Counted from the stretch's first letter, positions 7,390 to 58,203 are shown. The stretch: 64,000 bases of DNA from an uncultured Acidimicrobiales bacterium (GCA_938015575.1 CALLPT010000177.1:8182-72181), one strand, 5' to 3'. Translations and numbers: made by a program. Notes: generated by a model not told the origin, from the letters alone.

Positions 7390-7393
7390 CACC

Positions 7394-43584: not shown

Positions 43585-43700
43585 AATTGGGTACGACGCC
43601 CGTCGCGGCGGAAGGGGCCATTTGACCCGGGAAGACGGACTGGGTGACCTATATGGGCGACACTTTGGCACCGAGACGTGTCATGCAGTGAACTCACAGC

Positions 43701-44525: not shown

Positions 44526-44534
44526 GCAGTCGCG

Positions 44535-44562
44535 GAGCTGCGGTGTCTGACACCCGCAGCTC
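44535..44562. terminator. GC-rich hairpin built on the palindrome GGTGTCTGACACC in a convergent gap (candidate bidirectional terminator or REP-like element)
   Basis: GAGCTGCGGTGTC-t-GACACCCGCAGCTC with one bulged C. It shares its 13-nt core with the repeat at 35829-35841. No U-run on either side. Confidence 0.45.
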
Positions 44563-44625
44563 ACGTCGGTTGGGGGCGTCGGACAACGGCAACTTCTTCA
44601 CGGGCGGACATCGCACCGTTGGCCT

Positions 44626-45507
44626 TTAGTCGGGGCGAGTGCCCCAGGCGATCTCGACGAGCAAGCCGCAGTGGTCGCTGGCTTGCACGCCCGTCAACGG
44701 TTCGTGGGCAACCACCTTGGCGGACAGCACCCGTCCGGCATCGCCCGCTCGCAGGAACGGATCGCCGACGAATACGTAGTCGATGCGCTTGCGGTGCACA
44801 TTGAGCGAAGCGGCAAGCTCGTGGGTTCGCCAGTCCTGGGTCAACCCGGGACCGCCGTCGCCCGCGGTCGCCCAGGCGTCTTGCCAATACACGGTGCGTC
44901 CGCCGAGCTGGGTGTAGCCCTTGAGAAACCGGATCTCGTCGCTCTCCGGTTCGGCATTGAAGTCGCCAGTGAGAATCGCCGGCATGTGCTCGCGCGGATT
45001 CGGCGGGTCGACAAACGAATCCCGATCGCCACGTAGCTCGGTGACGTGATCCTGGATCGCTTGCACCTGGACCTGGCGATGCCGGCCATGGCTTGGTGCA
45101 GCCGCCAGGTGGGTCGTGAACAGATCAAGCCCCGCGGTCCGCGCGTGCAGAAGTTCCCACGGCATGCCGGTCAGGTAGAAGTCTTCCGGCTCCGGCGCCA
45201 ACGGCAGACGAAACGTCGTGTGTTCATCGATCGGCCAGCGACTCAAGATCGCCGACCCGAAGCGCATGTTCGGCTTCTCGCGTTCGGTCCACGCAACCGC
45301 ATGTCCACCAAAGACGAACTCGTAGTGATCCTGGGCATGGTCGGCCAGCCAGCGGGCAGTGTTGTCTTCGCCAATGTCCTGCCACACTTCTTGCAGACAG
45401 ATCACATCGGGACCGAGCTTGTCGATCCAGGCAACGATCTCGTGACGCCGTTCGGCCCAGCCCGCCTCGAAGAGTGACCCGATGTTCAACGTGAGCACGC
45501 GGAGCAC
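44626..45507 (-). CDS. endonuclease/exonuclease/phosphatase (EEP) family protein
   Basis: In-frame GTG 45507 gives VLRVLTLNIGS...DVICLQEV...ILTGDFN...SDHCGLLVEI. The listed start 45618 overlaps the divergent molybdoenzyme gene. Confidence 0.8.
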   Translation of the reverse strand: MLRVLTLNIGSLFEAGWAERRHEIVAWIDKLGPDVICLQEVWQDIGEDNTARWLADHAQDHYEFVFGGHAVAWTEREKPNMRFGSAILSRWPIDEHTTFRLPLAPEPEDFYLTGMPWELLHARTAGLDLFTTHLAAAPSHGRHRQVQVQAIQDHVTELRGDRDSFVDPPNPREHMPAILTGDFNAEPESDEIRFLKGYTQLGGRTVYWQDAWATAGDGGPGLTQDWRTHELAASLNVHRKRIDYVFVGDPFLRAGDAGRVLSAKVVAHEPLTGVQASDHCGLLVEIAWGTRPD

Positions 45508-45587
45508 CGTTGCAGCATATGGGACCTGGCCCGCAGGCGCAGGCGACCGCCCGTTGACGTCCGAGTCATCGGTTTCACTAGCTTGAG

Positions 45588-47867
45588 GTGATGACCGACA
45601 CCGCTGCCAACGACACAAACGAATGGCACAAGAGCGTCTGCATTCTGTGCTCAGCCAACTGTGGCGTCGAGTTGAAGCTCGACGGTCGCGAGATCGTGCG
45701 CGTCCGCGGCAACAAGGCGCACGTCGCCAGCGAGGGTTACACCTGCGAAAAAGCGCTGCGCCTGAACCACTATCAGAACGGCATGCGGCGCCTCACCTCG
45801 CCGATGCGTCGCGAGGCCGATGGCAGCTACACCGAGGTGGACTGGGACACCGCAATCACCGAGGTCGCCGCGGGGCTTCAGGCGATCGGGGCCGAACACG
45901 GCCAAGACAAGCTCATGTACTACGGCGGCGGTGGCCAGGGGAACCATCTCGTCGGCGTCTACGGATCCGGTCTTCGCCGCGCGCTCGGCATCAAGCATCG
46001 GTCCAATGCGCTCGCGCAGGAGAAGACGGGCGAGGCCTATGTCGAAGGACGGTTGACGGGCGCACACACCCACGGCGACTTCCACCACGCCGAAGTCTCG
46101 ATCTTCTTAGGTAAGAACCCCTGGCACAGCCACGGCTTCGATCAGGCCCGCCGGGTCCTCAAAGAAATCAACAACGACGACAACCGCTCCATGATCGTGA
46201 TCGACCCGCGTCGTTCCGAGACGGCTGACCTCGCCGACTATCACTTGGCGCTCAAGCCCGGGACCGACGCGTTCTGCATTGCGGCGATCCTGGCGACGTT
46301 GGTGCAAGAGGACCTGATCAAACGAGCCTGGTTGAAGGAGCACGCCAACGGCACCGAACGCATCCTCGAGGTGCTGGCCGACATCGACATCGCCGACTAC
46401 GCCGGCCGAGCCGGCCTGACCGAAGATGACGTCCGAGCCGCCGCGCGCCGCATCGGGCGAGCCCAAAGCGTGTCGATCTACGAAGACCTGGGCATCGAGA
46501 TGGCGCCCAACTCGACCCTGGTGTCGTATCTCCAACGACTGATCTGGATCCTCATGGGTTCGTTCAACATTCCGGGCGGCACGACCACGCATTCGGGCAT
46601 GGCGCCACTGTTCAACTACAAGGCGACCGGCAGCGAACCCGCGGCACCGATCACCGGGAACATGGTCATCAGCGGTCTCGTGGCGTGCAATGACATTCCC
46701 GACATGGTGCTGACCGATCACCCGGACCGGATCCGCGCCATGTTCATCGAAAGCGCGAATCCGGTGCATTCGCTCGCGGACAGCGCCAAGTTCCGCGAGG
46801 CGATGCGTCACCTTGAATTCTCCGTCGTGCTCGACGTCGCCATGACCGAGACGGCCCGCGAGGCCAGCTACGTGCTCCCTTGTTCGTCTCAATATGAAAA
46901 GGCCGAGGCAACGTTCTTTGGCGCGAGCTTTCCGGACAACCACTTCACCGTGCGCGCACCGATCATGGAGCCGCTCGAGGGCACGCTTCCCGAGAGCGAG
47001 ATCCACAGCCGACTCTTGCGCGAGATGGGCATGCTCGACGACGACCTGCTGGACACCTTGCGGGCCGCGGCCCAAGACGGACTCAAGGCCTACGGGGCTG
47101 CGCTGATGGAAGCGGGGGCCGCACATCCGAACCTGTTGGCCATTGCCCCGGTGATTCTGTACGAGACACTCGGCAAGTCTCTGCCCGACGGGCTCGCCGA
47201 CGCCGCTCCGCTCTGGTTCTCCTGCCAACAGCTCGCGTTGCGATACACCAGCGCGGTCAAGGCGGCGGGCTTCGACGACATCGCCGACGAGGACCTCGGC
47301 GACGCCGTCTTCGAAGCAGTGATCGCCGGCCGCGATGGCGTCACCGTGACCCGCCATACCTATGAACAGGGATGGGCGATGATGGGCACCGCCGATGGCA
47401 AGGTCAATGCCGACATTCCCGAACTCATCGACGATCTCGTCGCGCTGGCCGACAAGCCCGCCGACTATCGCAGCGATGAGTTCCCGTTCATCCTTTCTGC
47501 GGGCGAACGTCGAGCCTTCACCGCCAACACGATCATGCGCGACTCGAGCTGGCGCAAGAAGGACCCCGACGGCGCACTGCGACTCAGCCCCGCCGATGCC
47601 GCCGCGCTCGGGGTCGACAACGGAGACAAGATCCGCATCACCACCAAGGGTGGTTCGGCGGTTGCCCCTGTCGAGGTCAACGACTCGATGCAGGACGGCC
47701 ACATCTCGATCCCGAATGGGATGGGCTTGTACGCCGAGGCCGACGGTGACAGCGAGGTCGTGGGCGTGCCCCCCAACGAGCTGACAACGCTCGACTGGAA
47801 AGACGCCTATGCGGGCACCCCGTGGCACAAGCACGTGCCTGCCAAGCTGGAACCCGTCGCGTCGTAG
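45588..47867 (+). CDS. molybdopterin (bis-MGD) oxidoreductase, formate-dehydrogenase-like MopB family
   Basis: N-terminal 4Fe-4S motif CILCSANCGV...C(EKA), internal MopB blocks and a C-terminal MGD-binding barrel (IRITTKGGSAVAPVEVNDSMQDGHISIPNG). Confidence 0.85.
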   Translation: MMTDTAANDTNEWHKSVCILCSANCGVELKLDGREIVRVRGNKAHVASEGYTCEKALRLNHYQNGMRRLTSPMRREADGSYTEVDWDTAITEVAAGLQAIGAEHGQDKLMYYGGGGQGNHLVGVYGSGLRRALGIKHRSNALAQEKTGEAYVEGRLTGAHTHGDFHHAEVSIFLGKNPWHSHGFDQARRVLKEINNDDNRSMIVIDPRRSETADLADYHLALKPGTDAFCIAAILATLVQEDLIKRAWLKEHANGTERILEVLADIDIADYAGRAGLTEDDVRAAARRIGRAQSVSIYEDLGIEMAPNSTLVSYLQRLIWILMGSFNIPGGTTTHSGMAPLFNYKATGSEPAAPITGNMVISGLVACNDIPDMVLTDHPDRIRAMFIESANPVHSLADSAKFREAMRHLEFSVVLDVAMTETAREASYVLPCSSQYEKAEATFFGASFPDNHFTVRAPIMEPLEGTLPESEIHSRLLREMGMLDDDLLDTLRAAAQDGLKAYGAALMEAGAAHPNLLAIAPVILYETLGKSLPDGLADAAPLWFSCQQLALRYTSAVKAAGFDDIADEDLGDAVFEAVIAGRDGVTVTRHTYEQGWAMMGTADGKVNADIPELIDDLVALADKPADYRSDEFPFILSAGERRAFTANTIMRDSSWRKKDPDGALRLSPADAAALGVDNGDKIRITTKGGSAVAPVEVNDSMQDGHISIPNGMGLYAEADGDSEVVGVPPNELTTLDWKDAYAGTPWHKHVPAKLEPVAS

Positions 47868-47981
47868 TCCCCGACCGATGAGCCGAAGACCACCGCCGGA
47901 CACCACCGTCCGTGGTCGCCGAAAGCACGCAGGGCAATCAGCCCATTCTCAGGCAGTGTCCGAGGCCCTACGATCGCAGTC

Positions 47982-50900
47982 ATGATCCGCCGGTTGCTCG
48001 CGCTCGTGCTTATCGCGGCGCTGCTTCCGTTGTTCATCGCCCGCCCGGCCCACGCGCAACTCCCGAACGGCGTCGTGATCAGCGAGATCCACTACCACCC
48101 TCAGGCGGTCGGCGACGCATTTCCCGACTACGACGACCGCGAGGACACCGAGTTCATCGAGGTCGTGAACCTTGGCGCCAGCGCCGCCTCGGTTGGCGGC
48201 TGGTGTCTCAGCGATGCGATCGACTTCTGTTTCCCGGCCGGAACAAGCCTCGCCCCTCAGGACCCCTTCGTCGTCGCCCGCGACGCGGCCATCTTCGAAG
48301 CTGCCTATGGAACAGCGCCCGACGGTGTGTACGGAGGCCGGCTTTCCAACAGTGGTGAGTCGGTACGTCTGGTCGATGGGGCGCTCAGCACCGTCACCCA
48401 GGTCATCTGGCAGACAACGAACCCGTGGCCGGTGACGCCCGACGGCGATGGGCCAAGCCTGGAACTGATCTCGGTTGGCGGCCAGAACACGAGCCCGGCG
48501 AACTGGGCCGCGTCGTCAGTTCTCAACGGCACGCCTGGCACGATCCCGAGCTTGTCGGGCCAGTCACCGCCGTTGGTGGTCTCTCACACCGCGCCTTCTC
48601 CGGCGGTTGCCGGATCGCCGATTTCACTCACCGCAACCGCGATCAACGCGTCGTCGGTCGCCGTCATCTACGACGTCGACTTTGGCGCGAACACCACCAT
48701 TGCCATGACCCAGAACGGCGGCCAATGGCAGGTGCAGCTTCCGGCGATCAGCACCGGTGAGCTCTTGCGGTTCCGCTTCGAGGCAACCGGACCGGGTGGC
48801 ACCACCACAAGCCCGCGCGTCGATGATTCGATCACCTGGTGGGCAACCGCCGTCCCGACCAACCCAGTGTCGAGCGTGCCGACCCTTGATGTGCACATCG
48901 CCGACAGCGACTGGAACGACATCGAGGACCGGACCTGCGGATGCATGGCCGTCGTGGTCCACGACGGCCGGGTCTGGACCGATGTCGAAATGCGACGCGC
49001 TGGCTACACCAGCATCAACAACGCCAAAGGGCACTACCGACTCGACTTCCCTGACGGGCATCCGTTCGTGGCATCGTGGCTCGTCGGTTCTTCTGACGAG
49101 CTGACCCTCGACATGGGCTGGCCCAACATCGGCATCATCCGTGAACAGCTCAGCTGGAACTTCATGGTCGATCTCGGGTTCCCACAGATCCAGAACCAGC
49201 ACGTGCGCATGAGCCGCAACGGCAGCTTCCACGGCCTGTACCTGCTGCGCGACGAACAAGACGGCGACTGGCGAGAGCGCAACGGGTTCGACAACGGCGC
49301 CTTTTACAAGTTCGAAAACGGTTTCGACAGCGCCGGTTGGGCAGGCGGCTGGGAGAAGAAAGAAGCACTCGACCAACCCGACACCGACCTCTCGACGTTC
49401 CGAACATGCCTGGACGAACGAGGTACGGCGCTGCGGAGCTGCCTGCTCGACCAGGCCGACGTGCCCCAGCTCGTGCACGAGTTGGCTTCGATGATGGTGA
49501 TTCGCCAGATCGATCAGCGAGAGTTCAACTGGTTCCTGTGGCGTAACGACAGCCAGGGCGGATTGTGGCGCTTGCTCCCCGAGGACCTGGACCGCACCTG
49601 GGGTAGTACACCCACCAACCCGGGTACCGATTCGTACCGCGTCTACGAGCGGTGCATGGGGCTCGACAACACGCCCGGCAACGAGGTCTGCCGCGGCGTG
49701 CTCTCGGTGCCCGAGTTCGAGGACATGTACAACCGGCGCATCCGCACACTCGTCGATGAGCACCTGAGCGACCCGAAATGGCCGGCCGAGGTTGCCGCGA
49801 CCGCGAGCTATATCACGGCCGACTGGAACGACGACGAAGACCGCTGGAACCGGACCTCGGCATCGATGGCAACGATCTCGTCTGAACTGCAGGGCTGGAT
49901 CTCGGACTATGCGGCTCACCTGCGCAGCGGCGGCCACGACGGCAAAGTGCCTGCGCAGCAGAGCGCAACACCGTCGATCAATGTGGTCGAGTTGCGCGCC
50001 GACCAGGGCGACGGCGTCACCTGGTTGCTCCTTCAGAACCCGTCGACGACCGAGTCGGTCGATGTCTCGGGCTGGGAATTCAACGGGCTCGCCACGATCA
50101 CCAACGGTGCCGTCATCCTTCCCGGCGCCACGATTGCGGTCACGAACAACATCGATGCGTTCCTGGTCGAGAACCCCGGCTTTACCGGCGTACGCGCGCA
50201 GCTCGATGGCACAGTTGCGGGCGAAACCCAGCTGCTGCGCCGCGACGGTTCCCTGGTCACCAGCCTGGGCGATCCAGCCCCGAACCCGCTCGTGCTCAAC
50301 GAGTGGAATGCGGTGAGCTCATCGAACATCCTGGCCGTGGCCGATCCCGCTTTTGGGCCGGTTGCCGGCAACGGCGGTGACTGGTTCGAACTCGTCGTGG
50401 TCGAAGACCGACTCGACATCCGAGGCTGGAAGCTCGTTCTGTCCGACAACGACGGAGCCGGACCGGCGGTGCGCGACGAGTTCGTGTTTACCAACGCGAC
50501 GGAGTTGGCCGAGCTCGAAAGCGGTCTGATCATCACGGTCAGCGAGGACCGGCCCGACGATCTCGACTACTCCCCCGTCGACGGTGATTGGCACATCAAC
50601 TTCCAGGCCAATGGCCTTGATGCGGGACAGTTCTTCACCGCTACATCCCAAGAGAACTTCGACACGAACCACCACGACTGGCAGCTCGCGATCTACGACG
50701 CGGCCGGGCAGCTTGTCTTCGGACCTGCGGGCGAGGGCATCGGCGATCTCACCGGCGTCAACAGTGCTGAGATCGGCGAACTCGAAACCGACCCCGGTCT
50801 CGGGGTGAATCGTCTCGTGGATTATGGCGACGGCGACGGGTCGACCTATGGCCAGGCGAATGTCACTGCGGGAACTGCGCAGGATTTCAGCGCGATTGCC

Positions 50901-51149
50901 TGGCCGTACCGCCGCGGCGACGTCAATTGCGACGCCAACATGGACATCGTCGACGCGCTCTTGATCGCCCAGGTGACGGTCGGCAACCGAAGCGATGTAC
51001 CTCGATGCCCGATCGCCAATGTCATCACCGAGGCCCATACCGGGGTCGGCGACCTGAACTTCGACGGACGCACTGACATCGTCGATGCGCTTCTGATCTC
51101 ACAGTGCGCTGTGGGGATTCGGGCCGCCGGCTTCTGCCCAGAACCGTGA
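47982..51149 (+). CDS. secreted multidomain protein: lamin-tail domain (LTD), Ig-like region, CotH kinase-like domain, two further LTDs, C-terminal dockerin
   Basis: Signal peptide ...FIARPAHA. LTD: VVISEIHYHP...EFIEVVNLG...GGWCLSD. CotH-like: HYRLDFPDGHPF...HVRMSRNGSFHGLYLLRDEQDGDW. LTDs: VVELRADQG...WLLLQNPS...VSGWEF and LVLNEWNAV...GDWFELVV...GWKLVLSDND. Dockerin repeats: GDVNCDANMDIVDALLIAQ and GDLNFDGRTDIVDALLISQ. Confidence 0.8.
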   Translation: MIRRLLALVLIAALLPLFIARPAHAQLPNGVVISEIHYHPQAVGDAFPDYDDREDTEFIEVVNLGASAASVGGWCLSDAIDFCFPAGTSLAPQDPFVVARDAAIFEAAYGTAPDGVYGGRLSNSGESVRLVDGALSTVTQVIWQTTNPWPVTPDGDGPSLELISVGGQNTSPANWAASSVLNGTPGTIPSLSGQSPPLVVSHTAPSPAVAGSPISLTATAINASSVAVIYDVDFGANTTIAMTQNGGQWQVQLPAISTGELLRFRFEATGPGGTTTSPRVDDSITWWATAVPTNPVSSVPTLDVHIADSDWNDIEDRTCGCMAVVVHDGRVWTDVEMRRAGYTSINNAKGHYRLDFPDGHPFVASWLVGSSDELTLDMGWPNIGIIREQLSWNFMVDLGFPQIQNQHVRMSRNGSFHGLYLLRDEQDGDWRERNGFDNGAFYKFENGFDSAGWAGGWEKKEALDQPDTDLSTFRTCLDERGTALRSCLLDQADVPQLVHELASMMVIRQIDQREFNWFLWRNDSQGGLWRLLPEDLDRTWGSTPTNPGTDSYRVYERCMGLDNTPGNEVCRGVLSVPEFEDMYNRRIRTLVDEHLSDPKWPAEVAATASYITADWNDDEDRWNRTSASMATISSELQGWISDYAAHLRSGGHDGKVPAQQSATPSINVVELRADQGDGVTWLLLQNPSTTESVDVSGWEFNGLATITNGAVILPGATIAVTNNIDAFLVENPGFTGVRAQLDGTVAGETQLLRRDGSLVTSLGDPAPNPLVLNEWNAVSSSNILAVADPAFGPVAGNGGDWFELVVVEDRLDIRGWKLVLSDNDGAGPAVRDEFVFTNATELAELESGLIITVSEDRPDDLDYSPVDGDWHINFQANGLDAGQFFTATSQENFDTNHHDWQLAIYDAAGQLVFGPAGEGIGDLTGVNSAEIGELETDPGLGVNRLVDYGDGDGSTYGQANVTAGTAQDFSAIAWPYRRGDVNCDANMDIVDALLIAQVTVGNRSDVPRCPIANVITEAHTGVGDLNFDGRTDIVDALLISQCAVGIRAAGFCPEP

Positions 51150-51949
51150 GCGACAAAACCGCAATCCGGGCGCTCGTCGTCGACGACACGATCGTGAACC
51201 GGACCGTATTGGTCTCGCAATTGCAGCGCTTCGGAATCGAAGCGGCCACGTGCACCAATGGCGCCGAGGCACTCGAAGCCCTGCACGCGGCCCTGGATGA
51301 CCCCGCGCCCTTCGACCTGGTGCTGATGGATTGGCACATGCCCGAGGTCGATGGACTCGAAGCACTCGTTCGACATCGCACCTACGCATTCGAACTCGGC
51401 ATCGAACCGACGCCGATCGTGATGGTGACCGCCGACGCGAGTGACGATGCGCGCCAACGGTGCCTCGAAGCCGGTGCGGCAGATTTTTTGGCCAAGCCCG
51501 TGAGTCTCGCCACGTTGCGAAGCTCCCTTGTGGATGTGCTCGGCGAGCCGCGCATGGGTCCAGACCCAGCGGCAGAGGCCACCGCAGCAAAAGCCGACGT
51601 TTCCCTCGTCAATCGACAAGTCATCGACCAGATGATCGAAGACCTCGGCGGAACCGATGCGGTTGCATTGGTCATTGACGCGTTCATCACCGACGCCGAC
51701 GAACGACTCGAGGCCGTCACCGCCGGCCAAGCTGGCGGTGCCACGACCGAGGCGCAACGAGCAAGCCACACGCTCAAATCGACGGCGGCGCTGCTCGGTG
51801 CAAACGAACTGTCGAGTGCGGCCAGGCGTTTCGAATCCCAATTCGACCTGAATGAACGCCCAAGCGATGACGAGCTGGCGGCCTTTACGTCACTGTTCCG
51901 CTCAACGTTGGTTGAGCTCCGTGCGATGCGAGCGTCTTTCGCCAACTAG
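51146..51949 (+). CDS. response-regulator receiver fused to an HPt phosphotransfer domain (REC-HPt)
   Basis: GTG 51146 forms a GTGA overlap with the CotH-protein stop. REC: ALVVDD...LVLMDWHMPEVDG...MVTADAS...FLAKP. HPt: AQRASHTLKSTAALLGANEL. Confidence 0.85.
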   Translation: MSDKTAIRALVVDDTIVNRTVLVSQLQRFGIEAATCTNGAEALEALHAALDDPAPFDLVLMDWHMPEVDGLEALVRHRTYAFELGIEPTPIVMVTADASDDARQRCLEAGAADFLAKPVSLATLRSSLVDVLGEPRMGPDPAAEATAAKADVSLVNRQVIDQMIEDLGGTDAVALVIDAFITDADERLEAVTAGQAGGATTEAQRASHTLKSTAALLGANELSSAARRFESQFDLNERPSDDELAAFTSLFRSTLVELRAMRASFAN

Positions 51950-52076
51950 GCAGCGTCGAATCTGACGACGTACGCGACGCTGAGGCAAACGGACTAGGTC
52001 GCGCAGCAGTTTGGGTAAATCCCTCAAATCGAAGACTGGGGTATCACATTGCCCGCTCGTGGGTCGATAGGCATGC

Positions 52077-53288
52077 GTGAAATCAGCGTTTGAGACACCT
52101 CGGCGGGTCGGCGTCATCACCGCCTTTCCCCCCGGCCGGAACAGCCTGAACGAATTCGGCTTCCATCTCGTCAGCCATCTGGCTCAGAACGAGGACCTCG
52201 ATCGGGTCGTCGTCTTCGCCGACGAGACCGACCAAGGCGCTCCGATGCAGATCGAGGGCACCGAGTCGGTGGTCAGTTGGAAGTTCAACTCACTCACGAA
52301 TCCGATCCGCCTTTACCGGGCAATTCGTCGCGCCCGAGTCGACGCGGTGATCGTCAACCTGCAGTTCGCCACGTTCGGCGACACGAAGATCGCCGGCGGC
52401 CTCGGCCTGCTCGTGCCGATGCTGCTGGCTAAGACCGGGATCCCGACCGGCGTGATCCTCCACAACCTCGTCGAGAACGTGGACATGGAAGACGCCGGCT
52501 TTGCCGACAACAAGTGGATTGCCCGGCTGATGAACTTCGCCGGCGAGACCCTGACTCGCACGATCCTGCAGGCTGACTATGTGGCGTTGACCATCCCTCG
52601 CTATGTCGAGCTGTTGCAAGAGAAGTACGCAGCGACCAACGCGTTGTTGACGCCCCACGGCAGCTTCGAGGAAATCACCGAGCCCAAGTTCGGCATGCCC
52701 GACGGACCTCGCAAGATCCTTGCGTTCGGCAAATTTGGCACCTACAAGACAGTCGACGTGTTGGTCGACGCCTACCGGCAGCTGCTCGAGCGTGGCTACG
52801 ACGACGTCGAACTTGTCATTGCCGGTACCGACAGCCCGAACTCGCCCGGTTACCTCGCAGGGGTCCAAGAGAACTGCAAGGACCTCCCGAACGTCGTGTT
52901 CACCGGCTACGTCGAAGAAGAAGATGTCGCCGGCCTCTTCGAGTCGGCTGCCGTAACCGCCTTTCCGTACACGAGCACGACCGGCTCATCGGGCGTCCTC
53001 CACCAGGCCGGCTCCTATGGCCGCGCTGCGGTGCTGCCCGCCATCGGTGACTTTGCCGAGGTCATCGAAGAAGAAGGATTCGTCGGCCTGTACTTCGAGC
53101 CCGCCAATGCGACCAGCCTCGCCGACGCACTGGCAAAGATGCTCGACGACGACGTGCTCGTCACCGAGCATGGCCGCCGGAACTTCCTTGCGTCCACGGG
53201 TATCCCCATGTCCGAGGTCATCGACTGGCACCTGCTGCACCTGGGTGTGGCGATGACCAGTCGCATCCAAACCACCCAAGCGGGTTGA
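52077..53288 (+). CDS. glycosyltransferase, GT4 (GT-B, Glycos_transf_1) family
   Basis: RVGVITAFPP...SLNEFG at the N-terminus. The C-terminal half has FTGYVEEEDV...FESAAVTAFPYTSTTGSSGVLHQAGSYGRAAV (E-x7-E-like region). Confidence 0.8.
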   Translation: MKSAFETPRRVGVITAFPPGRNSLNEFGFHLVSHLAQNEDLDRVVVFADETDQGAPMQIEGTESVVSWKFNSLTNPIRLYRAIRRARVDAVIVNLQFATFGDTKIAGGLGLLVPMLLAKTGIPTGVILHNLVENVDMEDAGFADNKWIARLMNFAGETLTRTILQADYVALTIPRYVELLQEKYAATNALLTPHGSFEEITEPKFGMPDGPRKILAFGKFGTYKTVDVLVDAYRQLLERGYDDVELVIAGTDSPNSPGYLAGVQENCKDLPNVVFTGYVEEEDVAGLFESAAVTAFPYTSTTGSSGVLHQAGSYGRAAVLPAIGDFAEVIEEEGFVGLYFEPANATSLADALAKMLDDDVLVTEHGRRNFLASTGIPMSEVIDWHLLHLGVAMTSRIQTTQAG

Positions 53289-53292
53289 TCCC

Positions 53293-54609
53293 GTGAGCAA
53301 CGTGCAGACCCCGGTGTCAGCCGCAGGTGACGAACCGTCGTCGACCGCGGCGGACAACAAAGCTCTTGTCGCTGGCGGCTCCGTACTTGCCCTTGCCATG
53401 TTTGCCGCAAACGGCGGCAACTATCTGCTCAACGTCTTTCTTGGCCGCTGGCTCACGCCACCCGAGTTCGCCGATGCCAACTTGATGGTCACCCTCATGT
53501 TGCTGGTCACTGCCATCGCCGTGAGCCTGCAGCTCATTGCCGCGCGCTTCGCCGGCATCCACGCGGTCTCCGGCACACAGGCCGACACCCGGGCCATGGC
53601 CAGGAGCCTCGAACGTTGGGCCGCGGTCGGAGGTGTCGGCTTTGCCCTGCTCCTCGGCCTCGGTGCCCCAATGTGGGCCGATCTGTTCAACGTCGAGTCG
53701 GCATGGCCATTCATCATCCTGGGCCTCGGCATGCCCGCCTATCTGGTTCAAGCCGTCGGCCGAGGTGTGCTCCAGGGCCAGCTCCAGTTCCGAGCGCTGG
53801 CCGGCACCTTCGTCAAAGAGATGCTGGTCCGAGTGGTGTTGGGCATTGGCCTGGTCGCGATCGGGTTCGGCGTCGTCGGGGCGACAGCCGCACTGACCGC
53901 GTCGTTCATCGCAACCTGGCTCGCGGTGAAGATGGCGCTCGATTGGTCCGGCGACGACAAGGTCCGGGCCCCCATCAGCCGCGAAGTGCTCGCCTATGCC
54001 GGCCCGGTCGGTGTGCTCCTGCTCGGGCAGATCATCATCAACAACGGCGACGTGCTCATCTCGAAACAGGGCCTTGAGCCGACTGAAGCAGGCATCTACG
54101 CCGCGGTCGCGCTCGTCGGTCGAGCCGTGTTCTTCCTCTCCTGGTCGGTGGCAACAACGATCTTCCCTGCGGCAGCCCAACGAGACGAAGCGGGCGAAGA
54201 ATCGAATGGATTGCTCTATGCCGGCCTCGCCGCCGTCGCCGTGCTCGGCGTATGCGCCGTCATCGGGGCGCGCCTGCTTGGCGGCACCGTGCTCGGTCGA
54301 GTGTTTGGCGAGGAATACGCCGGGGTCTCGAACCAGCTCGCGTTGTATGCGCTCGCTACTGCCGTCTTTGCGATGGCAAACCTCATCGTCTCGCACTACC
54401 TGGCGCTCGGCCACCTGCGAGAGGCGCTCATCATGCTTGCGGGCGGCGCGGTGCAAACCACCCTGCTGCTGCTGGCCGATCGCACCATTGACGATCTCAT
54501 CCGAGCGCAGGTCATCGCGATGTTCATTCTGTTCGCCGCCATCTTCGCCAGCCATGGAGCACGCACGCTCCGTCTTGCCCCACTCGTTCGAGGAGCAGCA
54601 CCATCATGA
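53293..54609 (+). CDS. MOP/Wzx-like polysaccharide or lipid-linked oligosaccharide flippase
   Basis: 438 aa, about 12-14 TM helices, positioned between two glycosyltransferase genes. 4-nt gap and overlaps on both sides. Confidence 0.65.
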   Translation: MSNVQTPVSAAGDEPSSTAADNKALVAGGSVLALAMFAANGGNYLLNVFLGRWLTPPEFADANLMVTLMLLVTAIAVSLQLIAARFAGIHAVSGTQADTRAMARSLERWAAVGGVGFALLLGLGAPMWADLFNVESAWPFIILGLGMPAYLVQAVGRGVLQGQLQFRALAGTFVKEMLVRVVLGIGLVAIGFGVVGATAALTASFIATWLAVKMALDWSGDDKVRAPISREVLAYAGPVGVLLLGQIIINNGDVLISKQGLEPTEAGIYAAVALVGRAVFFLSWSVATTIFPAAAQRDEAGEESNGLLYAGLAAVAVLGVCAVIGARLLGGTVLGRVFGEEYAGVSNQLALYALATAVFAMANLIVSHYLALGHLREALIMLAGGAVQTTLLLLADRTIDDLIRAQVIAMFILFAAIFASHGARTLRLAPLVRGAAPS

Positions 54610-55433
54610 TCTCCAGCGATCTTCCCGCGTACCGCGCCTGGGCAGACACACCCCTCACGGAGAGGCCGAAGTACTCGGTTGTCATCCCGGCCTATAACGA
54701 GTCGGAACGCATCTTGCCGACGATCGGCGCCATTGCCGTACACATGAGTTCTCTCGGAGAACCATGGGAGCTCATCGTCGCCGATGACGGTTCGACCGAT
54801 GAGACCGTCGAGCTGCTGCAAGGCCTTGGGCTGGCAAATCTCAAGGTGCTCGTCGCCCAGCAGAACGGTGGCAAGGGCAGTGCTGTCCGCCGCGGCATGT
54901 TCGCCGCCGAAGGCGATGTCCTTCTCTTTGCCGATGCCGACCAAAGCACGCCCATTGAGCAGTTCGCCGATCTCCTCAGTGCGATCGAATCCGGCCACGA
55001 CGTCGCGATTGGATCCCGAGCGGCCGAAGGCGCCGAGGTCACCAACAAGTCTCTGGTCCGCAAGATCTTTAGCAAGGGCTTGAACTTGCTCGTTCGCTAT
55101 GGGTTCGGCGTGCCATTCGCAGACACCCAATGCGGCTTCAAGATGTTCACCGCCGAGGCAGCCGAGATGTTGTTCACGCACCAGATCGTCGACCAGTTCT
55201 CGTTCGACCTCGAGATCCTGTACCTCGCACAAAACCGATTCGATCTGACCGTGGCCGAGGTTCCGGTCGAATGGATCGATGCGCCGGGATCGACGGTCGA
55301 CGCGACCAAGGTCGCCGTCGAGTTCCTTCGAGACATGGCCCACATCAAGTGGAACGACCTGCGCGGCCGCTATGCCAGCGCAAACCACGAGTGGCCCAAG
55401 CCAGCGTCGAGCACTGCGGCGCTGGCCTCGTAA
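54606..55433 (+). CDS. glycosyltransferase family 2, polyprenyl/dolichyl-phosphate hexosyltransferase-like
   Basis: YSVVIPAYNESERI, IVADDGSTDET, NGGKGSAVRRGM, FADADQSTP (DxD), DTQCGFKMF. Confidence 0.85.
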   Translation: MISSDLPAYRAWADTPLTERPKYSVVIPAYNESERILPTIGAIAVHMSSLGEPWELIVADDGSTDETVELLQGLGLANLKVLVAQQNGGKGSAVRRGMFAAEGDVLLFADADQSTPIEQFADLLSAIESGHDVAIGSRAAEGAEVTNKSLVRKIFSKGLNLLVRYGFGVPFADTQCGFKMFTAEAAEMLFTHQIVDQFSFDLEILYLAQNRFDLTVAEVPVEWIDAPGSTVDATKVAVEFLRDMAHIKWNDLRGRYASANHEWPKPASSTAALAS

Positions 55434-55481
55434 GCCCCTTCCGCCTCAGCCCCTGACCCGACCACCCAATCGAGGAATCCA

Positions 55482-55808
55482 ATGCGACTCGTAACCGAAG
55501 CACCCACAACCGAACAGCCAGCGCTGGTACTCGACGGTCGATTCGATGCATTCGAGACCGAAAAGTTCCGCGCCGCTTGTGACGAGCTACTGGCGCACGG
55601 CGCCAACAGCTTGTCGGTCGACCTGAGCGATGTCATCTTCATCGACTCATCAGGACTCGCCGAATTGGTCCGGGCGATGAAACACTGCCGCCAGAGCGGA
55701 GGCGAGCTCGTCATCGTCTCGCCGTCCGACCCGGTCCGGGTCATCTTCGAACTCACCCGCCTCGACGCAGCGTTCACGATTCAGGACGCAAGCGTCCAAG
55801 CATCCTGA
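55482..55808 (+). CDS. STAS-domain anti-sigma-factor-antagonist-like protein (copy 1)
   Basis: 108 aa. VIFIDSSGLAELV carries the conserved phosphorylatable Ser position (DSSGL). SD GAGGAA. Confidence 0.85.
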   Translation: MRLVTEAPTTEQPALVLDGRFDAFETEKFRAACDELLAHGANSLSVDLSDVIFIDSSGLAELVRAMKHCRQSGGELVIVSPSDPVRVIFELTRLDAAFTIQDASVQAS

Positions 55809-56962
55809 TGGCGGTATCGACCGAAGTCGGACGGCCCGGAGCGGCCGTCGACTCACTGACTTCAGCACTGATCGACGCGAACGACCGACTCCTCGGTCTG
55901 CTCGCCTTGATCACCGACGAAGCGCCCGGATCGCTGGACAACGACGTCCTGATCACGGCGATCGTCGATCGCGCTGCCCCGATTCTCAAACTCGACCGCG
56001 TGACGGTCAACGGGGCGGCCGATTACGAATGGGGCTCGGACGTCGACGATGCCAAGGGATCGTGGACCTCTACCCATGCCATCCCTGAGCAGGGCGACGT
56101 TGACATCACGTTCAAGCGCCGCGGGTCCCGGTTCAACACCGGCGACACCAAATTGCTCAGTGCCGTCGCCAAGCTGATGAGCAACGCGATCACGACCGCG
56201 CGGATGCACCGTGCGGCGATGGACCAGGCAATGATGGCAAAGGAGCATGCGACCGCAGCTCGTATCACCGCAGCCGCACTTCCGGATCCGGAGCGCATAC
56301 CGCAGATCGACGGGTTGAGCTGCTTCGCCAACTTGGTGCCAGCTCGCACAACCGGTGGTGACCTGTACGCGTGGCGCGAGATCGACGGCAAGCTGTGGTT
56401 CGCGCTGGGCGACGTTTCCGGCAAAGGCTTGCCAGCCGCGGTACAGATGTCGACGATTACGAGCGCTCTCGACGCCGGCTTCCGCCAGCACCACACCGAT
56501 GGCCCCGAAGAAGTCATCGCCGCAGTTGGGCGCTGGGTCCACCATCGACTCTCCGAGTCGGGCATGTTCGTGACGCTCGCCGTTGGCAGCTTCGATCCGC
56601 ACACACGGACCCTCTGCATTGCGAACAGCGGCCACAGCCCGATCGTGTATCGCCGCAACGCCAAGTGCAGACGCATCGACGCGACGGCACCTCCGGTCGG
56701 GGTAATCGAGGGCATCCCTACGATCGAGACCGTGATCCAGGTGGAACAGGACGATCTCTTGGTGCTCGCCACGGACGGCTTCACCGAACAGGACAATCTC
56801 GCCGGCGAGATGTACGGCGAAGATCGCTTCGATGACACGATCGCCCATGCGGTCGGCAGTGCACCCGAAGTAGGTACGTTCCTGCTGAACGAACTCGCCG
56901 CACACGGCATCGACTGCGAACAGTCCGACGACCGCACGCTCATGGTGCTGCACTTCTCATGA
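55808..56962 (+). CDS. PP2C-type (SpoIIE/RsbU-like) serine phosphatase with GAF-like N-terminal domain
   Basis: TGATG overlap with STAS-1. GGDLYAW...FALGDVSGKGLPAA...LVLATDGFTE...SDDRTLMVLHF. Confidence 0.85.
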   Translation: MAVSTEVGRPGAAVDSLTSALIDANDRLLGLLALITDEAPGSLDNDVLITAIVDRAAPILKLDRVTVNGAADYEWGSDVDDAKGSWTSTHAIPEQGDVDITFKRRGSRFNTGDTKLLSAVAKLMSNAITTARMHRAAMDQAMMAKEHATAARITAAALPDPERIPQIDGLSCFANLVPARTTGGDLYAWREIDGKLWFALGDVSGKGLPAAVQMSTITSALDAGFRQHHTDGPEEVIAAVGRWVHHRLSESGMFVTLAVGSFDPHTRTLCIANSGHSPIVYRRNAKCRRIDATAPPVGVIEGIPTIETVIQVEQDDLLVLATDGFTEQDNLAGEMYGEDRFDDTIAHAVGSAPEVGTFLLNELAAHGIDCEQSDDRTLMVLHFS

Positions 56963-57372
56963 TGACGACCGCGCTGCTCACGCTCAAGGCCGACTATGAG
57001 TCGATGCGCGCGATTGGGCCGTGGCTCGAGGAACAGGTGCAGGCGATCGGCGCCGATCACCTCGCCGGCCGGGTGAGCGAGTTCGAGCTCGCCGTGCACG
57101 AGCTGGCTGTGAACATCGTCGACCACGCCTTTGACGACGAGACCCGCGCCGGCGCGACCTTCGACATCACCATGCATTGCAACGACGACAAGGCCCTGGT
57201 TGTCAACTTCGTCGACCGCGGCATCGCGTACGACTCGGCGGACAAGCCCGTGGTCGGCGACGAGCCGACCATCCGTGGCTATGGCCTCTTCATCGTCGAA
57301 CAGCTCGCTACTTCCATCGACTACGCACGCCGCGACGACGCCAACTACTGGACGCTCGTCTTCGGTGGCTGA
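56959..57372 (+). CDS. RsbW/SpoIIAB-like anti-sigma serine kinase (HATPase_c_2)
   Basis: ATGA overlap with the phosphatase. ELAVHELAVNIVDHAF (N box), VDRGIAYD, GYGLFIVEQLATSIDY. Confidence 0.8.
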   Translation: MMTTALLTLKADYESMRAIGPWLEEQVQAIGADHLAGRVSEFELAVHELAVNIVDHAFDDETRAGATFDITMHCNDDKALVVNFVDRGIAYDSADKPVVGDEPTIRGYGLFIVEQLATSIDYARRDDANYWTLVFGG

Positions 57373-57427
57373 GCGAACCGTCTCGAAAACCCTCAAACCC
57401 CCGTCATTCCAACCGATAGGAGTCACT

Positions 57428-57766
57428 ATGAGCCTCCCAACGTCGTCCTTCGACATTCGAATCAACACGATCACGATCGATGGTCGCCTCGACGCAATGC
57501 GTGCAGTTGACCTGCGCGAGGAGATTGACGAGACGATCGAAAGCGGCGTTGTCCGTCTGATCGTCGACCTCAGCCGCGCGGACTTCGTCGACAGTGCCGG
57601 CCTTGCCGCGCTCGCCAAGGGGATGAAGGATTGCCGTGGTGCCGGGGGCGATCTTCGCGTCGTTGCAGCCCAGAACCCCGACGCAGCTCGCGTGTTCCAG
57701 CTCACCCGCTTCGACCAGGTGTTCCGCATGGCGGACTCGGCCGAGGATCTCGTCGCGACGTGGTAG
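57428..57766 (+). CDS. STAS-domain anti-sigma-factor-antagonist-like protein (copy 2)
   Basis: ATG 57428 is preceded by TAGGAGTCACT. DFVDSAGLAALAKG carries the conserved Ser (DSAGL). The listed longer ORF (57131) overlaps the kinase gene. Confidence 0.85.
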   Translation: MSLPTSSFDIRINTITIDGRLDAMRAVDLREEIDETIESGVVRLIVDLSRADFVDSAGLAALAKGMKDCRGAGGDLRVVAAQNPDAARVFQLTRFDQVFRMADSAEDLVATW

Positions 57767-58140
57767 TCCTGGTCGTCGACGACGATCCGGTCAGCCGGCT
57801 TGTCGCTGAACACATTTTGCGTAGCGGCGACCACACCGTTATCGGAGCCGAGAGCGCCGAAGAGGCTCGCGAGGTACTCGAGGCCAACGGTAACGACGTG
57901 CAGCTCATCGTGTGCGACTACAACATGCCCGGAGCATCGGGCCTCGACCTGCTCGAAGAGATCCATCGCGATGCGGTGGTGACCCCATGCCCGCCGTTCG
58001 TGCTGATCACCGGTGTGGGCGAAGAAGACGAGCTCGATGACGAACGAGCATCACAAGTGTCGGGCTACTTGACCAAGCCTGTGCAATCGGGCGAACTGAT
58101 CGCCTTGGCGAGCGAGCTCGCTGCCACTCCCGTCGACTGA
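57760..58140 (+). CDS. stand-alone response-regulator receiver domain protein
   Basis: GTG 57760 overlaps the STAS-2 3' end by 7 nt. VLVVDDD...LIVCDYNMPGASG...VLITG...YLTKP contains all the receiver signature residues. Confidence 0.8.
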   Translation: MVVLVVDDDPVSRLVAEHILRSGDHTVIGAESAEEAREVLEANGNDVQLIVCDYNMPGASGLDLLEEIHRDAVVTPCPPFVLITGVGEEDELDDERASQVSGYLTKPVQSGELIALASELAATPVD

Positions 58141-58154
58141 CCACACCGTCGGTG

Positions 58155-58194
58155 TTGCCACTGGCGGTTGCTTTTCCTGCTAATTGTACGTACA
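58155..58194 (+). promoter_or_regulatory. candidate promoter (TTGCCA - 17/18 nt - TGCTAAT) followed by palindrome TGTACGTACA
   Basis: AT-rich island between the REC and SulP genes. -35 at 58155-58160, -10 around 58178-58184, and a 10-bp perfect palindrome at 58185-58194. Confidence 0.4.
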
Positions 58195-58203
58195 TTTGTA
58201 TGT

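What the first reader, a model, noticed from the sequence alone, without database searches (positions are those of the whole stretch)
47982..51949. Secreted LTD-CotH-LTD-LTD-dockerin protein translationally coupled to a cytoplasmic REC-HPt protein
The 1055-aa protein has a clear signal peptide, three lamin-tail domains, a CotH domain (the CotH family is known to adopt an atypical protein-kinase fold) and a C-terminal two-repeat dockerin. No cohesin partner is in the window. Its stop codon overlaps (GTGA) the start of a signal-peptide-less REC-HPt phosphorelay protein. Tight coupling of an extracellular kinase-like or adhesin-like protein with an intracellular phosphotransfer protein is not a pairing I know from described systems. 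Together with the downstream partner-switch genes it suggests one regulon linking a surface structure to Ser/Thr and His-Asp signalling.
Basis: partly seen in the sequence, partly recalled or inferred. Interest (0 to 1): 0.6.

Follow-up and report, generated by a model that had tools for sequence, protein, structure and literature searches.

The report
Secreted CotH kinase beside phosphorelay gene
A secreted CotH-type kinase-like protein and a small signalling protein really do overlap by four bases here, but they are neighbours only in one narrow group of marine actinobacteria, so the pairing looks like an accident of gene order and not a new signalling system.

Summary
Both genes are real. 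ORF 47982-51149 encodes a 1055-aa secreted protein: signal peptide, LTD, CBM56-like domain, CotH (catalytic Asp/Asn/Asp kept), LTD, an unclassified beta domain, a linker and a two-repeat dockerin. Only two LTDs could be verified. ORF 51146-51949 encodes an intact REC-HPt protein whose GTG start overlaps the CotH stop (GTGA).

The pairing is not a conserved unit. The order CotH-(REC)HPt-GT4 is found only where the CotH ortholog is at least about 67% identical. Within that clade the junction ranges from a 4-nt overlap to a 72-nt gap, and one genome has lost the REC domain. CotH orthologs at 61% identity or below, and 74 other CotH loci, have no REC or HPt gene within 10 kb.

The downstream block GT4-flippase-GT2-STAS-PP2C-RsbW-like kinase-STAS-REC is conserved as far as Actinoplanes without CotH. 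In related Acidimicrobiia a hybrid histidine kinase sits upstream of that block. Its C-terminal REC-HPt half is 43% identical to the window protein.

The REC-HPt protein therefore most likely belongs to the glycan/partner-switch module, in the manner of HptB-HsbR-HsbA, and CotH is a lineage-specific neighbour. Both are new members of known kinds, and interest is low to moderate.

The parts
47982..51149 (+). Gene for a 1055-aa secreted multidomain CotH-family protein
   Evidence: ORF. Pfam CotH, LTD, CBM_56 and Dockerin_1. Seventeen full-length orthologs at 45-90% identity. AF2 model with mean pLDDT 72.
47982..48056 (+). Signal peptide (aa 1-25, predicted cleavage AHA|Q)
   Evidence: Read from the sequence. 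The A-x-A|Q motif is conserved in the ortholog alignment. No dedicated predictor was run.
48063..48407 (+). Lamin-tail domain 1 (aa 28-142)
   Evidence: Pfam PF00932, E 1.5e-12, 48.3 bits on the fragment.
48624..48788 (+). CBM56-like Ig/beta-sandwich domain (aa 215-269)
   Evidence: Pfam PF22184, 27.7-30.8 bits against a cut-off of 27. Foldseek hit to BhCBM56 5t7a, TM 0.74. Profile hit at E 0.0068.
49002..49907 (+). CotH atypical-kinase domain (aa 341-642) with K349, D511, N516 and D535
   Evidence: Pfam PF08757, E 1.4e-25. PDB 5jd9 by phmmer at 4.5e-07 and by profile at 1.5e-14. Foldseek E 1.8e-15, TM 0.70. The residues are invariant in 17 orthologs.
49956..50270 (+). Lamin-tail domain 2 (aa 659-763), divergent
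   Evidence: Pfam LTD 29.9 bits (below the cut-off of 34.3), E 8e-07. hhalign to LTD1 gives probability 89.9%, E 1.7e-06. pLDDT is 87-96.
50280..50729 (+). Unclassified beta-rich domain (aa 767-916) with the NEWNAV...GNGGDWFEL motif.
   Evidence: No Pfam family. hhalign to LTD1 and LTD2 is not significant. It is the most widely conserved stretch in distant relatives, at 43-54% identity. pLDDT is 47-77.
50730..50882 (+). Predicted disordered linker (aa 917-967)
   Evidence: pLDDT is below 50 over aa 917-967.
50916..51146 (+). Dockerin-like module with two F-hand Ca2+-binding repeats and four conserved Cys (aa 979-1055)
   Evidence: Pfam PF00404, 29.3 bits on the isolated C-terminus and 21.0 bits on the whole protein. 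All four PDB hits are dockerins. Profile hit to Doc8 at E 0.0026. C983, C1009, C1042 and C1052 are nearly invariant.
51146..51949 (+). Gene for a 267-aa cytoplasmic REC-HPt phosphotransfer protein. REC is aa 10-127 (nt 51173-51526) and HPt is aa 177-258 (nt 51674-51919). The GTG start overlaps the CotH stop as GTGA.
   Evidence: Sequence. Pfam. Identical database protein P0121. It is 43% identical over aa 8-266 to the C-terminal half of the hybrid HK in L167. His208 and the REC active-site residues are conserved. NCBIfam best hits are the C-termini of hybrid kinases.
52077..55433 (+). Glycan genes: GT4 glycosyltransferase (52077-53288), Wzx-like flippase (53293-54609), and a GT2 polyprenyl-phosphate-sugar-synthase-like enzyme (54606-55433)
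   Evidence: Pfam. NCBIfam relates the GT2 to ArnC, AglJ and PpgS. These genes are 81-95% identical in relatives. The order is conserved to Actinoplanes.
55482..58140 (+). Partner-switch genes: STAS (55482-55808), PP2C/SpoIIE phosphatase (55808-56962), RsbW-like HATPase_c_2 kinase (56959-57372), STAS (about 57434-57766), and a stand-alone REC (57760-58140)
   Evidence: Pfam. NCBIfam relates them to anti-sigma antagonists, SiaA and RsbW. The same order occurs in L001, L160, L167, L168 and L169.
58145..58178 (+). Terminator-like hairpin with a U-rich tail directly after the last gene of the module
   Evidence: Found by the scan. Folding gives -15.9 kcal/mol, z -1.98. The number of such sites in the region is not above chance.

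Best explanation
Two separate units lie side by side.

(1) The 1055-aa protein is a Sec-exported CotH-family atypical kinase. It is probably held at the cell surface or in a complex through its Ca2+-binding dockerin. Its substrate-binding modules are two LTDs and a CBM56-like domain. It is one of several paralogous LTD...dockerin exoproteins in marine Acidimicrobiia. The kinase residues are intact, so it most likely phosphorylates an extracellular protein or glycan. That step is inferred.

(2) The REC-HPt protein is the phosphorelay input of the deeply conserved downstream module (GT4, flippase, GT2, then STAS, PP2C, RsbW-like kinase, STAS, REC). It corresponds to the C-terminal half of a hybrid histidine kinase that occupies this position in related genomes. 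It most likely receives phosphate on its REC Asp from a kinase encoded elsewhere. It then passes the phosphate via His208 to the stand-alone REC at 57760-58140, which tunes the Ser-phosphorylation partner switch and so the surface-glycan output, in the manner of HptB-HsbR-HsbA. These phosphotransfer steps are inferred.

The 4-nt overlap reflects operon compaction after a rearrangement in one genus-level clade. It probably means co-transcription in this organism, but it is not a conserved functional pairing.
For: - Adjacency is confined to close relatives. The order CotH-(REC)HPt-GT4 appears in the window, L162, L160/161, the P0125 contig, L164/165, L166 and L001.
- Adjacency is lost in L163 (61%), L003, L004/5 and L084-L089.
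- None of 74 other CotH-domain loci has a REC or HPt homolog within 10 kb.
- The junction varies: 4-nt overlap (window, L162), 13 nt (L164/5), 30 nt (L001), 49 nt (L160), 72 nt (L166).
- L001 has an HPt-only protein without REC.
- The 8-gene module is conserved without CotH in L167, L168 and Actinoplanes L169. In L167 and L168 it is preceded by a hybrid HK (HisKA-HATPase-REC-HPt), an H-NOX protein and a second HK.
- The window REC-HPt is 43% identical end to end to the C-terminus of the L167 hybrid HK. That is as close as it is to the CotH-adjacent ortholog in L166, at 45%.
- NCBIfam best hits for REC-HPt are the C-termini of hybrid kinases.
- REC-HPt is under purifying selection but is the least constrained gene of the locus. 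Its dN/dS is 0.18-0.19, against 0.035-0.05 for GT4 and Wzx.
- CotH identity and active-site conservation are shown.
- Dockerin-bearing CotH and LTD-CotH proteins are already known in C. thermocellum (PMC6083626).
- An HPt protein feeding a PP2C/kinase/STAS partner switch is documented for HptB-HsbR-HsbA (PMC5085249).
Against: - Within the clade the two genes are always on the same strand and close together, and no terminator was detected between them. CotH may therefore be co-expressed with the module, and a lineage-specific functional link cannot be excluded.
- The direction of the evolutionary change was not polarised by a phylogeny. It could be truncation of a hybrid kinase, or fusion of a free REC-HPt to a kinase in the other lineages.
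- No remnant of a kinase core was found upstream of REC-HPt.
- The cognate kinase, the phosphotransfer route and the CotH substrate are all inferred.
- ATP supply outside the cell is an unsolved problem for any secreted kinase.
Confidence: 0.7

Rival explanations
1. In this clade CotH has been recruited into the operon of the glycan/partner-switch module and works with it. One version is that CotH phosphorylates or binds the surface glycan or glycoprotein that the GT4/Wzx/GT2 genes build. This is essentially the first reader's 'one regulon' idea.
For: - The genes share a strand and are spaced by at most 72 nt in about seven related contigs.
- No terminator-like site lies between CotH and REC-HPt, and a terminator-like hairpin appears only after the last module gene.
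- The CBM56-like domain hints at glycan binding.
- The kinase residues are intact.
Against: - The related contigs represent one evolutionary event (one narrow clade).
- CotH orthologs at 61% identity or below sit in unrelated neighbourhoods.
- The module is conserved as far as Actinoplanes without CotH.
- A 127-nt, less GC-rich gap precedes GT4 and could hold the module's own promoter.
- In 74 other CotH loci GT2 homologs are only sporadic (three loci) and none has a REC or HPt gene within 10 kb.
Confidence: 0.2
2. The REC-HPt gene is a decaying remnant of a truncated hybrid histidine kinase and no longer signals. Its overlap with CotH is then meaningless.
For: - It has the lowest amino-acid identity between relatives (40-68%, against 78-95% for its neighbours).
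- It has the highest dN/dS of the locus.
- Its GC3 is lower, 0.71 against 0.77-0.88 for most neighbouring genes.
- REC is lost in L001, and N-terminal extensions vary among relatives.
Against: - dN/dS of about 0.18 still indicates purifying selection.
- The ORF is intact in all relatives.
- The phospho-acceptor Asp, the acidic pocket, Thr, Lys and the HPt His are conserved.
Confidence: 0.08

Closest known systems
Bacillus CotH spore-coat Ser/Thr kinase (PDB 5JD9/5JDA; B. subtilis CotH D228Q and D251A are inactive, PMC7821199)
   Same: Both match Pfam PF08757 and share the fold (Foldseek E 1.8e-15, TM 0.70). The D-x4-N...D active-site residues are conserved with the same 23-residue spacing between the two Asp.
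   Different: The Bacillus enzyme is a single-domain protein of about 360 aa that acts in the mother-cell cytoplasm on coat proteins. This protein is 1055 aa, Sec-exported, and flanked by LTD, CBM56-like and dockerin modules. Sequence identity in the domain is only about 18%.
Clostridium thermocellum cellulosomal CotH proteins Cthe_0239 (LTD, LTD, Fn3, CotH, dockerin) and Cthe_0044/CseP (CotH, dockerin) (PMC6083626)
   Same: These are secreted proteins that combine LTD, CotH and a type I dockerin. The function of their CotH modules is also unknown.
   Different: The domain order differs. The organism is an anaerobic cellulolytic Firmicute with known cohesin scaffoldins. Here no cohesin was found in the window, and the dockerin carries four conserved Cys.
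Pseudomonas aeruginosa HptB-HsbR-HsbA phosphorelay/partner-switch (PMC5085249, PMC6482189) and the SiaABCD system
   Same: An HPt protein is encoded with a PP2C phosphatase, an RsbW-like Ser kinase, STAS antagonist(s) and a receiver domain. Those systems control biofilm and surface behaviour.
   Different: In Pseudomonas the REC, PP2C and kinase domains are fused in one protein (HsbR) and HptB is HPt only. Here they are separate proteins, HPt is fused to a REC, there are two STAS proteins, and the block is joined to GT4/flippase/GT2 genes. The phosphotransfer itself is untested.
C-terminal REC-HPt portion of hybrid/unorthodox sensor kinases (TorS, BarA, ArcB type; the hybrid HKs of loci L167 and L168)
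   Same: The window protein aligns end to end at 43% identity with L167 residues 250-512, with conserved Asp and His. The hybrid HK sits in the same position upstream of the same GT4 module.
   Different: The window protein lacks HisKA and HATPase domains, and also lacks the adjacent H-NOX and second kinase genes.

Membership tests
CotH kinase family (PF08757) | Profile match above the curated cut-off | tested here: met
   90.9 bits against 23.8, E 1.4e-25, aa 341-642 covering profile positions 5-317 of 322.
CotH kinase family (PF08757) | Atypical kinase fold as in B. cereus CotH | tested here: met
   AF2 model has pLDDT of about 80-96 over most of this domain. Foldseek top hits are 5jd9 and 5jda, E 1.8e-15, TM 0.70 normalised to the target, 377 aligned columns.
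CotH kinase family (PF08757) | Catalytic Asp, Asn and metal-binding Asp (B. subtilis D228 and D251) | tested here: met
   D511, N516 and D535 align with D224, N229 and D247 of the 5jd9 chain and are invariant in 17 orthologs. Equivalence to B. subtilis D228 and D251 rests on the identical 23-residue spacing and is inferred. The mutant data come from PMC7821199.
CotH kinase family (PF08757) | Protein kinase activity | not testable with these tools
   This needs an in vitro assay.
Type I dockerin (PF00404) | Profile match above the cut-off | tested here: inconclusive
   21.0 bits on the whole protein (cut-off 22.9) and 29.3 bits on the isolated C-terminal 95 aa. An ortholog profile hits R. flavefaciens Doc8 at E 0.0026.
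Type I dockerin (PF00404) | Two duplicated F-hand Ca2+-binding loops, each followed by a helix | tested here: met
   The loops are DVNCDANMDIVD + ALLIAQ and DLNFDGRTDIVD + ALLISQ. Helices at aa 989-999 and 1033-1043 appear in the model.
Type I dockerin (PF00404) | A cohesin partner in the genome | tested here: not met
   No Pfam Cohesin hit in about 50 window ORFs. The rest of the genome could not be searched.
Lamin-tail domain (PF00932), three copies as claimed | Three regions matching the LTD profile | tested here: not met
   LTD1 scores 48.3 bits. LTD2 scores 29.9 bits (below the cut-off), but hhalign relates it to LTD1 at 89.9% probability. Region aa 767-916 has no Pfam hit, and hhalign gives E 0.03-0.07 with probability below 2%.
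His-Asp phosphorelay REC-HPt protein | REC and HPt profiles with the phospho-acceptor Asp and His | tested here: met
   PF00072 at E 4.8e-23 and PF01627 at E 3.5e-11. The DD pocket, Asp in LMDWHMP, Thr, Lys, and His208 in HTLKS are conserved.
   Adjacency is present only where CotH is at least about 67% identical. It is absent at 61% and below and in 74 other CotH loci.
   The overlap is kept only in L162. Elsewhere there are gaps of 13-72 nt. A 4-nt overlap occurs in 8 of 38 same-strand pairs in the window.
HptB-HsbR-HsbA-type phosphorelay-controlled partner switch | HPt, receiver, PP2C phosphatase, RsbW-like kinase and STAS antagonist encoded together | tested here: met
   All components are present at 51146-58140. 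The block is conserved in L001, L160 and L167-L169. The domains are on separate proteins, not fused as in HsbR.
HptB-HsbR-HsbA-type phosphorelay-controlled partner switch | Phosphotransfer from HPt to the receiver that controls phosphatase/kinase balance | not testable with these tools
   This needs biochemical phosphotransfer profiling.

The most novel reading that the evidence does not exclude
In this Acidimicrobiia clade the surface-tethered CotH enzyme has been captured by the operon of a conserved surface-glycan module. It would act as an extracellular glycan or glycoprotein kinase on that module's product, a bacterial counterpart of the secretory-pathway kinases FAM20B and POMK. Its expression would be tied to a His-Asp/partner-switch circuit.
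Probability: 0.07. Interest if true: 0.75.

Novelty: new member of a known kind. Interest (0 to 1): 0.27.

Why it matters
If the pairing were functional, it would link an extracellular kinase-like enzyme to cytoplasmic His-Asp signalling, which has not been described. The comparative evidence argues against that, so the locus is mostly of annotation value.

- It shows that a stop/start overlap alone is weak evidence for function in this genome.
- It assigns the orphan REC-HPt protein to a widely conserved actinobacterial module that joins glycan synthesis to a partner switch. I found no description of that module in the literature searched.
- It adds marine Acidimicrobiia to the organisms that carry families of dockerin-bearing LTD/CotH exoproteins with no evident cohesin. 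The biochemical role of these proteins remains open.

Tried and rejected
- Rfam scan of 44000-59000 for riboswitches or leaders near either gene found nothing credible.
- The promoter/terminator scan found counts at chance level. Only the hairpin after 58140 is well placed.
- Folding of the 3' flank of REC-HPt and of the CotH 5' region was no better than shuffled sequence.
- I looked for kinase-core remnants or homology in the N-terminal extensions of the REC-HPt orthologs and found none.
- I tested whether the 1030-aa neighbour of CotH in L004 is related to the 1086-aa membrane protein that travels with the module. It is not.
- I looked for H-NOX, the second HK or the 1086-aa protein in the window, L160 and L001. 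They are absent.
- hhalign of aa 767-916 against LTD1, LTD2 and the Ig domain was not significant.
- NCBIfam has no model for the CotH protein.
- Literature searches for a characterised secreted bacterial LTD-CotH protein, or for the GT/partner-switch module in Actinobacteria, found nothing specific.
- dS is close to saturation (about 1), so the dN/dS values are only rough.

Full report
**What is in the sequence**

ORF 47982-51149 (+) encodes 1055 aa, and ORF 51146-51949 (+) encodes 267 aa. The sequence at 51146-51149 is GTGA, so the GTG start of the second gene overlaps the TGA stop of the first. The only other candidate start is a GTG at 51104. The 51146 start is supported in two ways. An identical 267-aa protein is already in the public collection, on a 72.8-kb NCBI contig (P0121). 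The closest relative has ATGA at the same position (L162). The window is about 64% GC, and the nearest genomes are marine Acidimicrobiia MAGs of the Acidimicrobiaceae/Ilumatobacteraceae type.

**The large protein**

- Its N-terminus (MIRRLLALVLIAALLPLFIARPAHA|Q) has the features of a Sec signal peptide.
- Pfam finds LTD at aa 28-142, a CBM56-like domain at aa 215-269, CotH at aa 341-642 (E 1.4e-25), a second and weaker LTD at about aa 659-763, and a dockerin at aa 979-1040.
- A profile built from 17 full-length orthologs hits three solved structures: B. cereus CotH 5JD9 (1.5e-14), an R. flavefaciens type I dockerin (0.0026) and BhCBM56 (0.0068).
- An AlphaFold2 model has mean pLDDT 72, with the CotH region mostly between about 80 and 96. 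Its best PDB matches are 5JD9/5JDA (Foldseek E 1.8e-15, TM 0.70) and CBM56 (TM 0.74).
- D511, N516 and D535 align with the D-x4-N...D residues of 5JD9 and are invariant in all orthologs. The two Asp have the same 23-residue spacing as B. subtilis D228 and D251, whose mutation inactivates CotH (PMC7821199).
- The dockerin has two canonical 12-residue Ca2+-binding loops and four conserved Cys.
- The 'third LTD' (aa 767-916) could not be verified. It has no Pfam hit and no significant hhalign match to LTD1 or LTD2. It does share the 'xNExx...DWFEL...GW' pattern with LTDs and is the part most conserved across phyla.
- The verified architecture is SP-LTD-CBM56-like-CotH-LTD-beta domain-linker-dockerin.
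- Dockerin-bearing CotH and LTD-CotH proteins are already known from the C. thermocellum cellulosome (Cthe_0044/CseP and Cthe_0239; PMC6083626).

**The small protein**

It is an intact REC-HPt protein. The acidic pocket, the Asp in LMDWHMP, Thr, Lys, and His208 in HTLKS are all present. It has no hydrophobic N-terminus.

**Is the pairing conserved?**

I examined the neighbourhoods of CotH orthologs across the identity range.

| CotH identity | Locus | Downstream of CotH |
|---|---|---|
| 90% | L162 | REC-HPt, ATGA overlap |
| 80% | L160/161 and the P0125 contig | REC-HPt, 49-nt gap, N-terminal extension of about 55 aa |
| about 67-71% (partial) | L164/165 | REC-HPt, 13-nt gap |
| about 69% (partial) | L166 | REC-HPt, 72-nt gap |
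| 67% | L001 (GCA_039028435.1) | 202-aa protein with HPt but no REC, 30-nt gap |
| 61% | L163 | convergent, unrelated gene |
| 49-56% | L003, L004/5, L084-L089 | ECF sigma factor or other unrelated genes; no REC, HPt, GT or STAS homolog within 10 kb |

Among 74 further loci that encode a CotH domain (Acidimicrobiia paralogs, Planctomycetota, Acidobacteriota and others), none has a REC or HPt homolog within 10 kb. The adjacency is therefore one event in a narrow clade, and the overlap is not even stable within that clade. Four-nucleotide overlaps are common in this genome: 8 of 38 same-strand neighbour pairs in the window have one.

**Where REC-HPt belongs**

- The eight genes downstream are GT4, a Wzx-like flippase, a GT2 resembling polyprenyl-phosphate sugar synthases, STAS, a PP2C phosphatase, an RsbW-like HATPase_c_2 kinase, a second STAS and a stand-alone REC. 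They span 52077-58140.
- These genes are 74-95% identical between the window and its relatives, whereas REC-HPt is only 40-68% identical.
- Using GT4 as an anchor, the same eight-gene block in the same order was found in two other Acidimicrobiia contigs (L167, L168) and in Actinoplanes (L169), each time without CotH.
- In L167 and L168 the genes immediately upstream of GT4 are a hybrid histidine kinase (HisKA-HATPase-REC-HPt), an H-NOX protein and a second kinase. In Actinoplanes other two-component genes occupy that position.
- The window REC-HPt aligns end to end (aa 8-266) at 43% identity with the C-terminal REC-HPt half of the L167 hybrid kinase. That is about as close as it is to the CotH-adjacent ortholog in L166, at 45%.
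- NCBIfam's best hits for REC-HPt are likewise the C-termini of hybrid kinases.
- The simplest reading is that REC-HPt is the phosphorelay input element of the glycan/partner-switch module. In the window's clade the kinase core, the H-NOX gene and the second kinase are missing, and CotH sits where they would be. Whether this was truncation or the reverse (fusion in the other lineages) was not polarised.
- REC-HPt is still under purifying selection (dN/dS about 0.18) but is the least constrained gene of the locus, and its GC3 is lower than that of most of its neighbours.

**How it most likely works**

What is shown is the domain content, the conserved catalytic and phospho-acceptor residues, the conserved module, and the phyletic pattern of adjacency. 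The following steps are inferred.

- An unidentified kinase phosphorylates the REC Asp of the 267-aa protein.
- His208 relays the phosphate to the stand-alone REC at 57760-58140.
- That REC biases the PP2C/RsbW-like pair acting on the STAS proteins, and so controls the surface-glycan genes or their products.
- This resembles HptB-HsbR-HsbA in P. aeruginosa, where phospho-HptB switches HsbR from kinase to phosphatase acting on the STAS protein HsbA (PMC5085249).
- Separately, the CotH protein is exported, is tethered through its dockerin to an unknown partner, binds a polymer through its LTD and CBM56-like modules, and phosphorylates an extracellular substrate.
- The source of ATP outside the cell is an open problem for this last step.

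**Transcription**

No terminator-like element lies between CotH and REC-HPt. A 127-nt, less GC-rich gap precedes GT4. A hairpin with a U-rich tail follows the last module gene at 58145-58178. Co-transcription of CotH with REC-HPt is therefore plausible in this organism, but the available tools cannot decide it.

**Verdict**

HPt plus the partner-switch genes do form a conserved unit, but the CotH/REC-HPt 'coupling' is a lineage-specific juxtaposition. Both proteins are new members of known kinds. The residual novel possibility is that CotH was recruited to act on the glycan made next door, and I rate that at about 7%.

Noticed in passing
window 52077-58140; L167 9001-15016; L168 9001-15331; L169 9001-15248: An eight-gene block (GT4, Wzx-like flippase, GT2, STAS, PP2C, HATPase_c_2, STAS, REC) keeps the same order from marine Acidimicrobiia to Actinoplanes. 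GT4 is 65-95% identical across these loci. Two-component genes always lie upstream but vary. I found no description of this module in the literature searched.
   Followed up: partly
L167 5911-8944; L168 5189-8860: In related Acidimicrobiia the module is preceded by a hybrid HK (HisKA-HATPase-REC-HPt), an H-NOX (HNOB) protein and a second HK. This suggests a gas (NO/O2) input that is missing in the window's clade.
   Followed up: partly
L167 782-4042; L168 1619-4906 (-); L169 17340-19194: A polytopic membrane protein of about 1086-1173 aa with no Pfam hit travels with the module in three distant genomes, at 49-61% identity. It is absent from the window, L160 and L001. It could be a GT-C-like glycosyltransferase, but this was not tested.
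   Followed up: partly
L035, L042, L064, L065, L113, L114, L115 (ORFs ending near locus position 10900, or 14180 in L115): Each Acidimicrobiia genome encodes several paralogous secreted proteins of about 800-1170 aa; several of those examined have LTD-like N-termini. They share the C-terminal cassette of the window protein (aa about 765-1055), including a Cys-bearing double F-hand dockerin. No cohesin was seen.
   Followed up: partly
window 50280-50729 (aa 767-916): This beta-rich domain carries the motif NEWNAV...GNGGDWFEL. It is the most conserved part of the protein across phyla (43-54% identity in Planctomycetota, Acidobacteriota and Deltaproteobacteria), yet it matches no Pfam family.
   Followed up: partly
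L003 13260-14250; L084 5521-6104; L087 13261-14251: In the 54-56% identical CotH orthologs the gene directly downstream is an ECF sigma factor, followed (in L003 and L087; the L084 contig ends first) by a small ORF of 111-135 aa with no Pfam hit (a candidate anti-sigma factor, untested). A different regulator is thus juxtaposed to CotH in another clade.
   Followed up: no
proteins P0018 and P0262 (both on a 48,783-bp contig): A contig labelled as the sea spider Nymphon striatum carries a 68%-identical CotH fragment and a 650-aa 'putative histidine kinase 1' that joins REC-HPt to GT4. This is probably bacterial contamination with a eukaryote-style gene model merging two genes.
   Followed up: no
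window 51146-51949: REC-HPt has lower third-position GC (0.71, and 0.67 in the HPt half) than most of its neighbours (0.77-0.88; the first STAS gene is 0.72). It also has the highest dN/dS of the locus (0.18-0.19).
   Followed up: yes
window 27432-28718 (-), 41953-43671 (-), 7241-8848 (+): The window also encodes two GGDEF diguanylate cyclases (one with PAS-PAS) and a HAMP-HisKA-HATPase kinase. A REC-like match lies just upstream of that kinase, at about 6718-7074.
   Followed up: no
window 44626-45618 (-); L160 6658-7539 (-); L169 15245-17343: An endonuclease/exonuclease/phosphatase-family gene lies near the module in the window and L160, and two copies lie directly after it in Actinoplanes. 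This may be a loose association.
   Followed up: no
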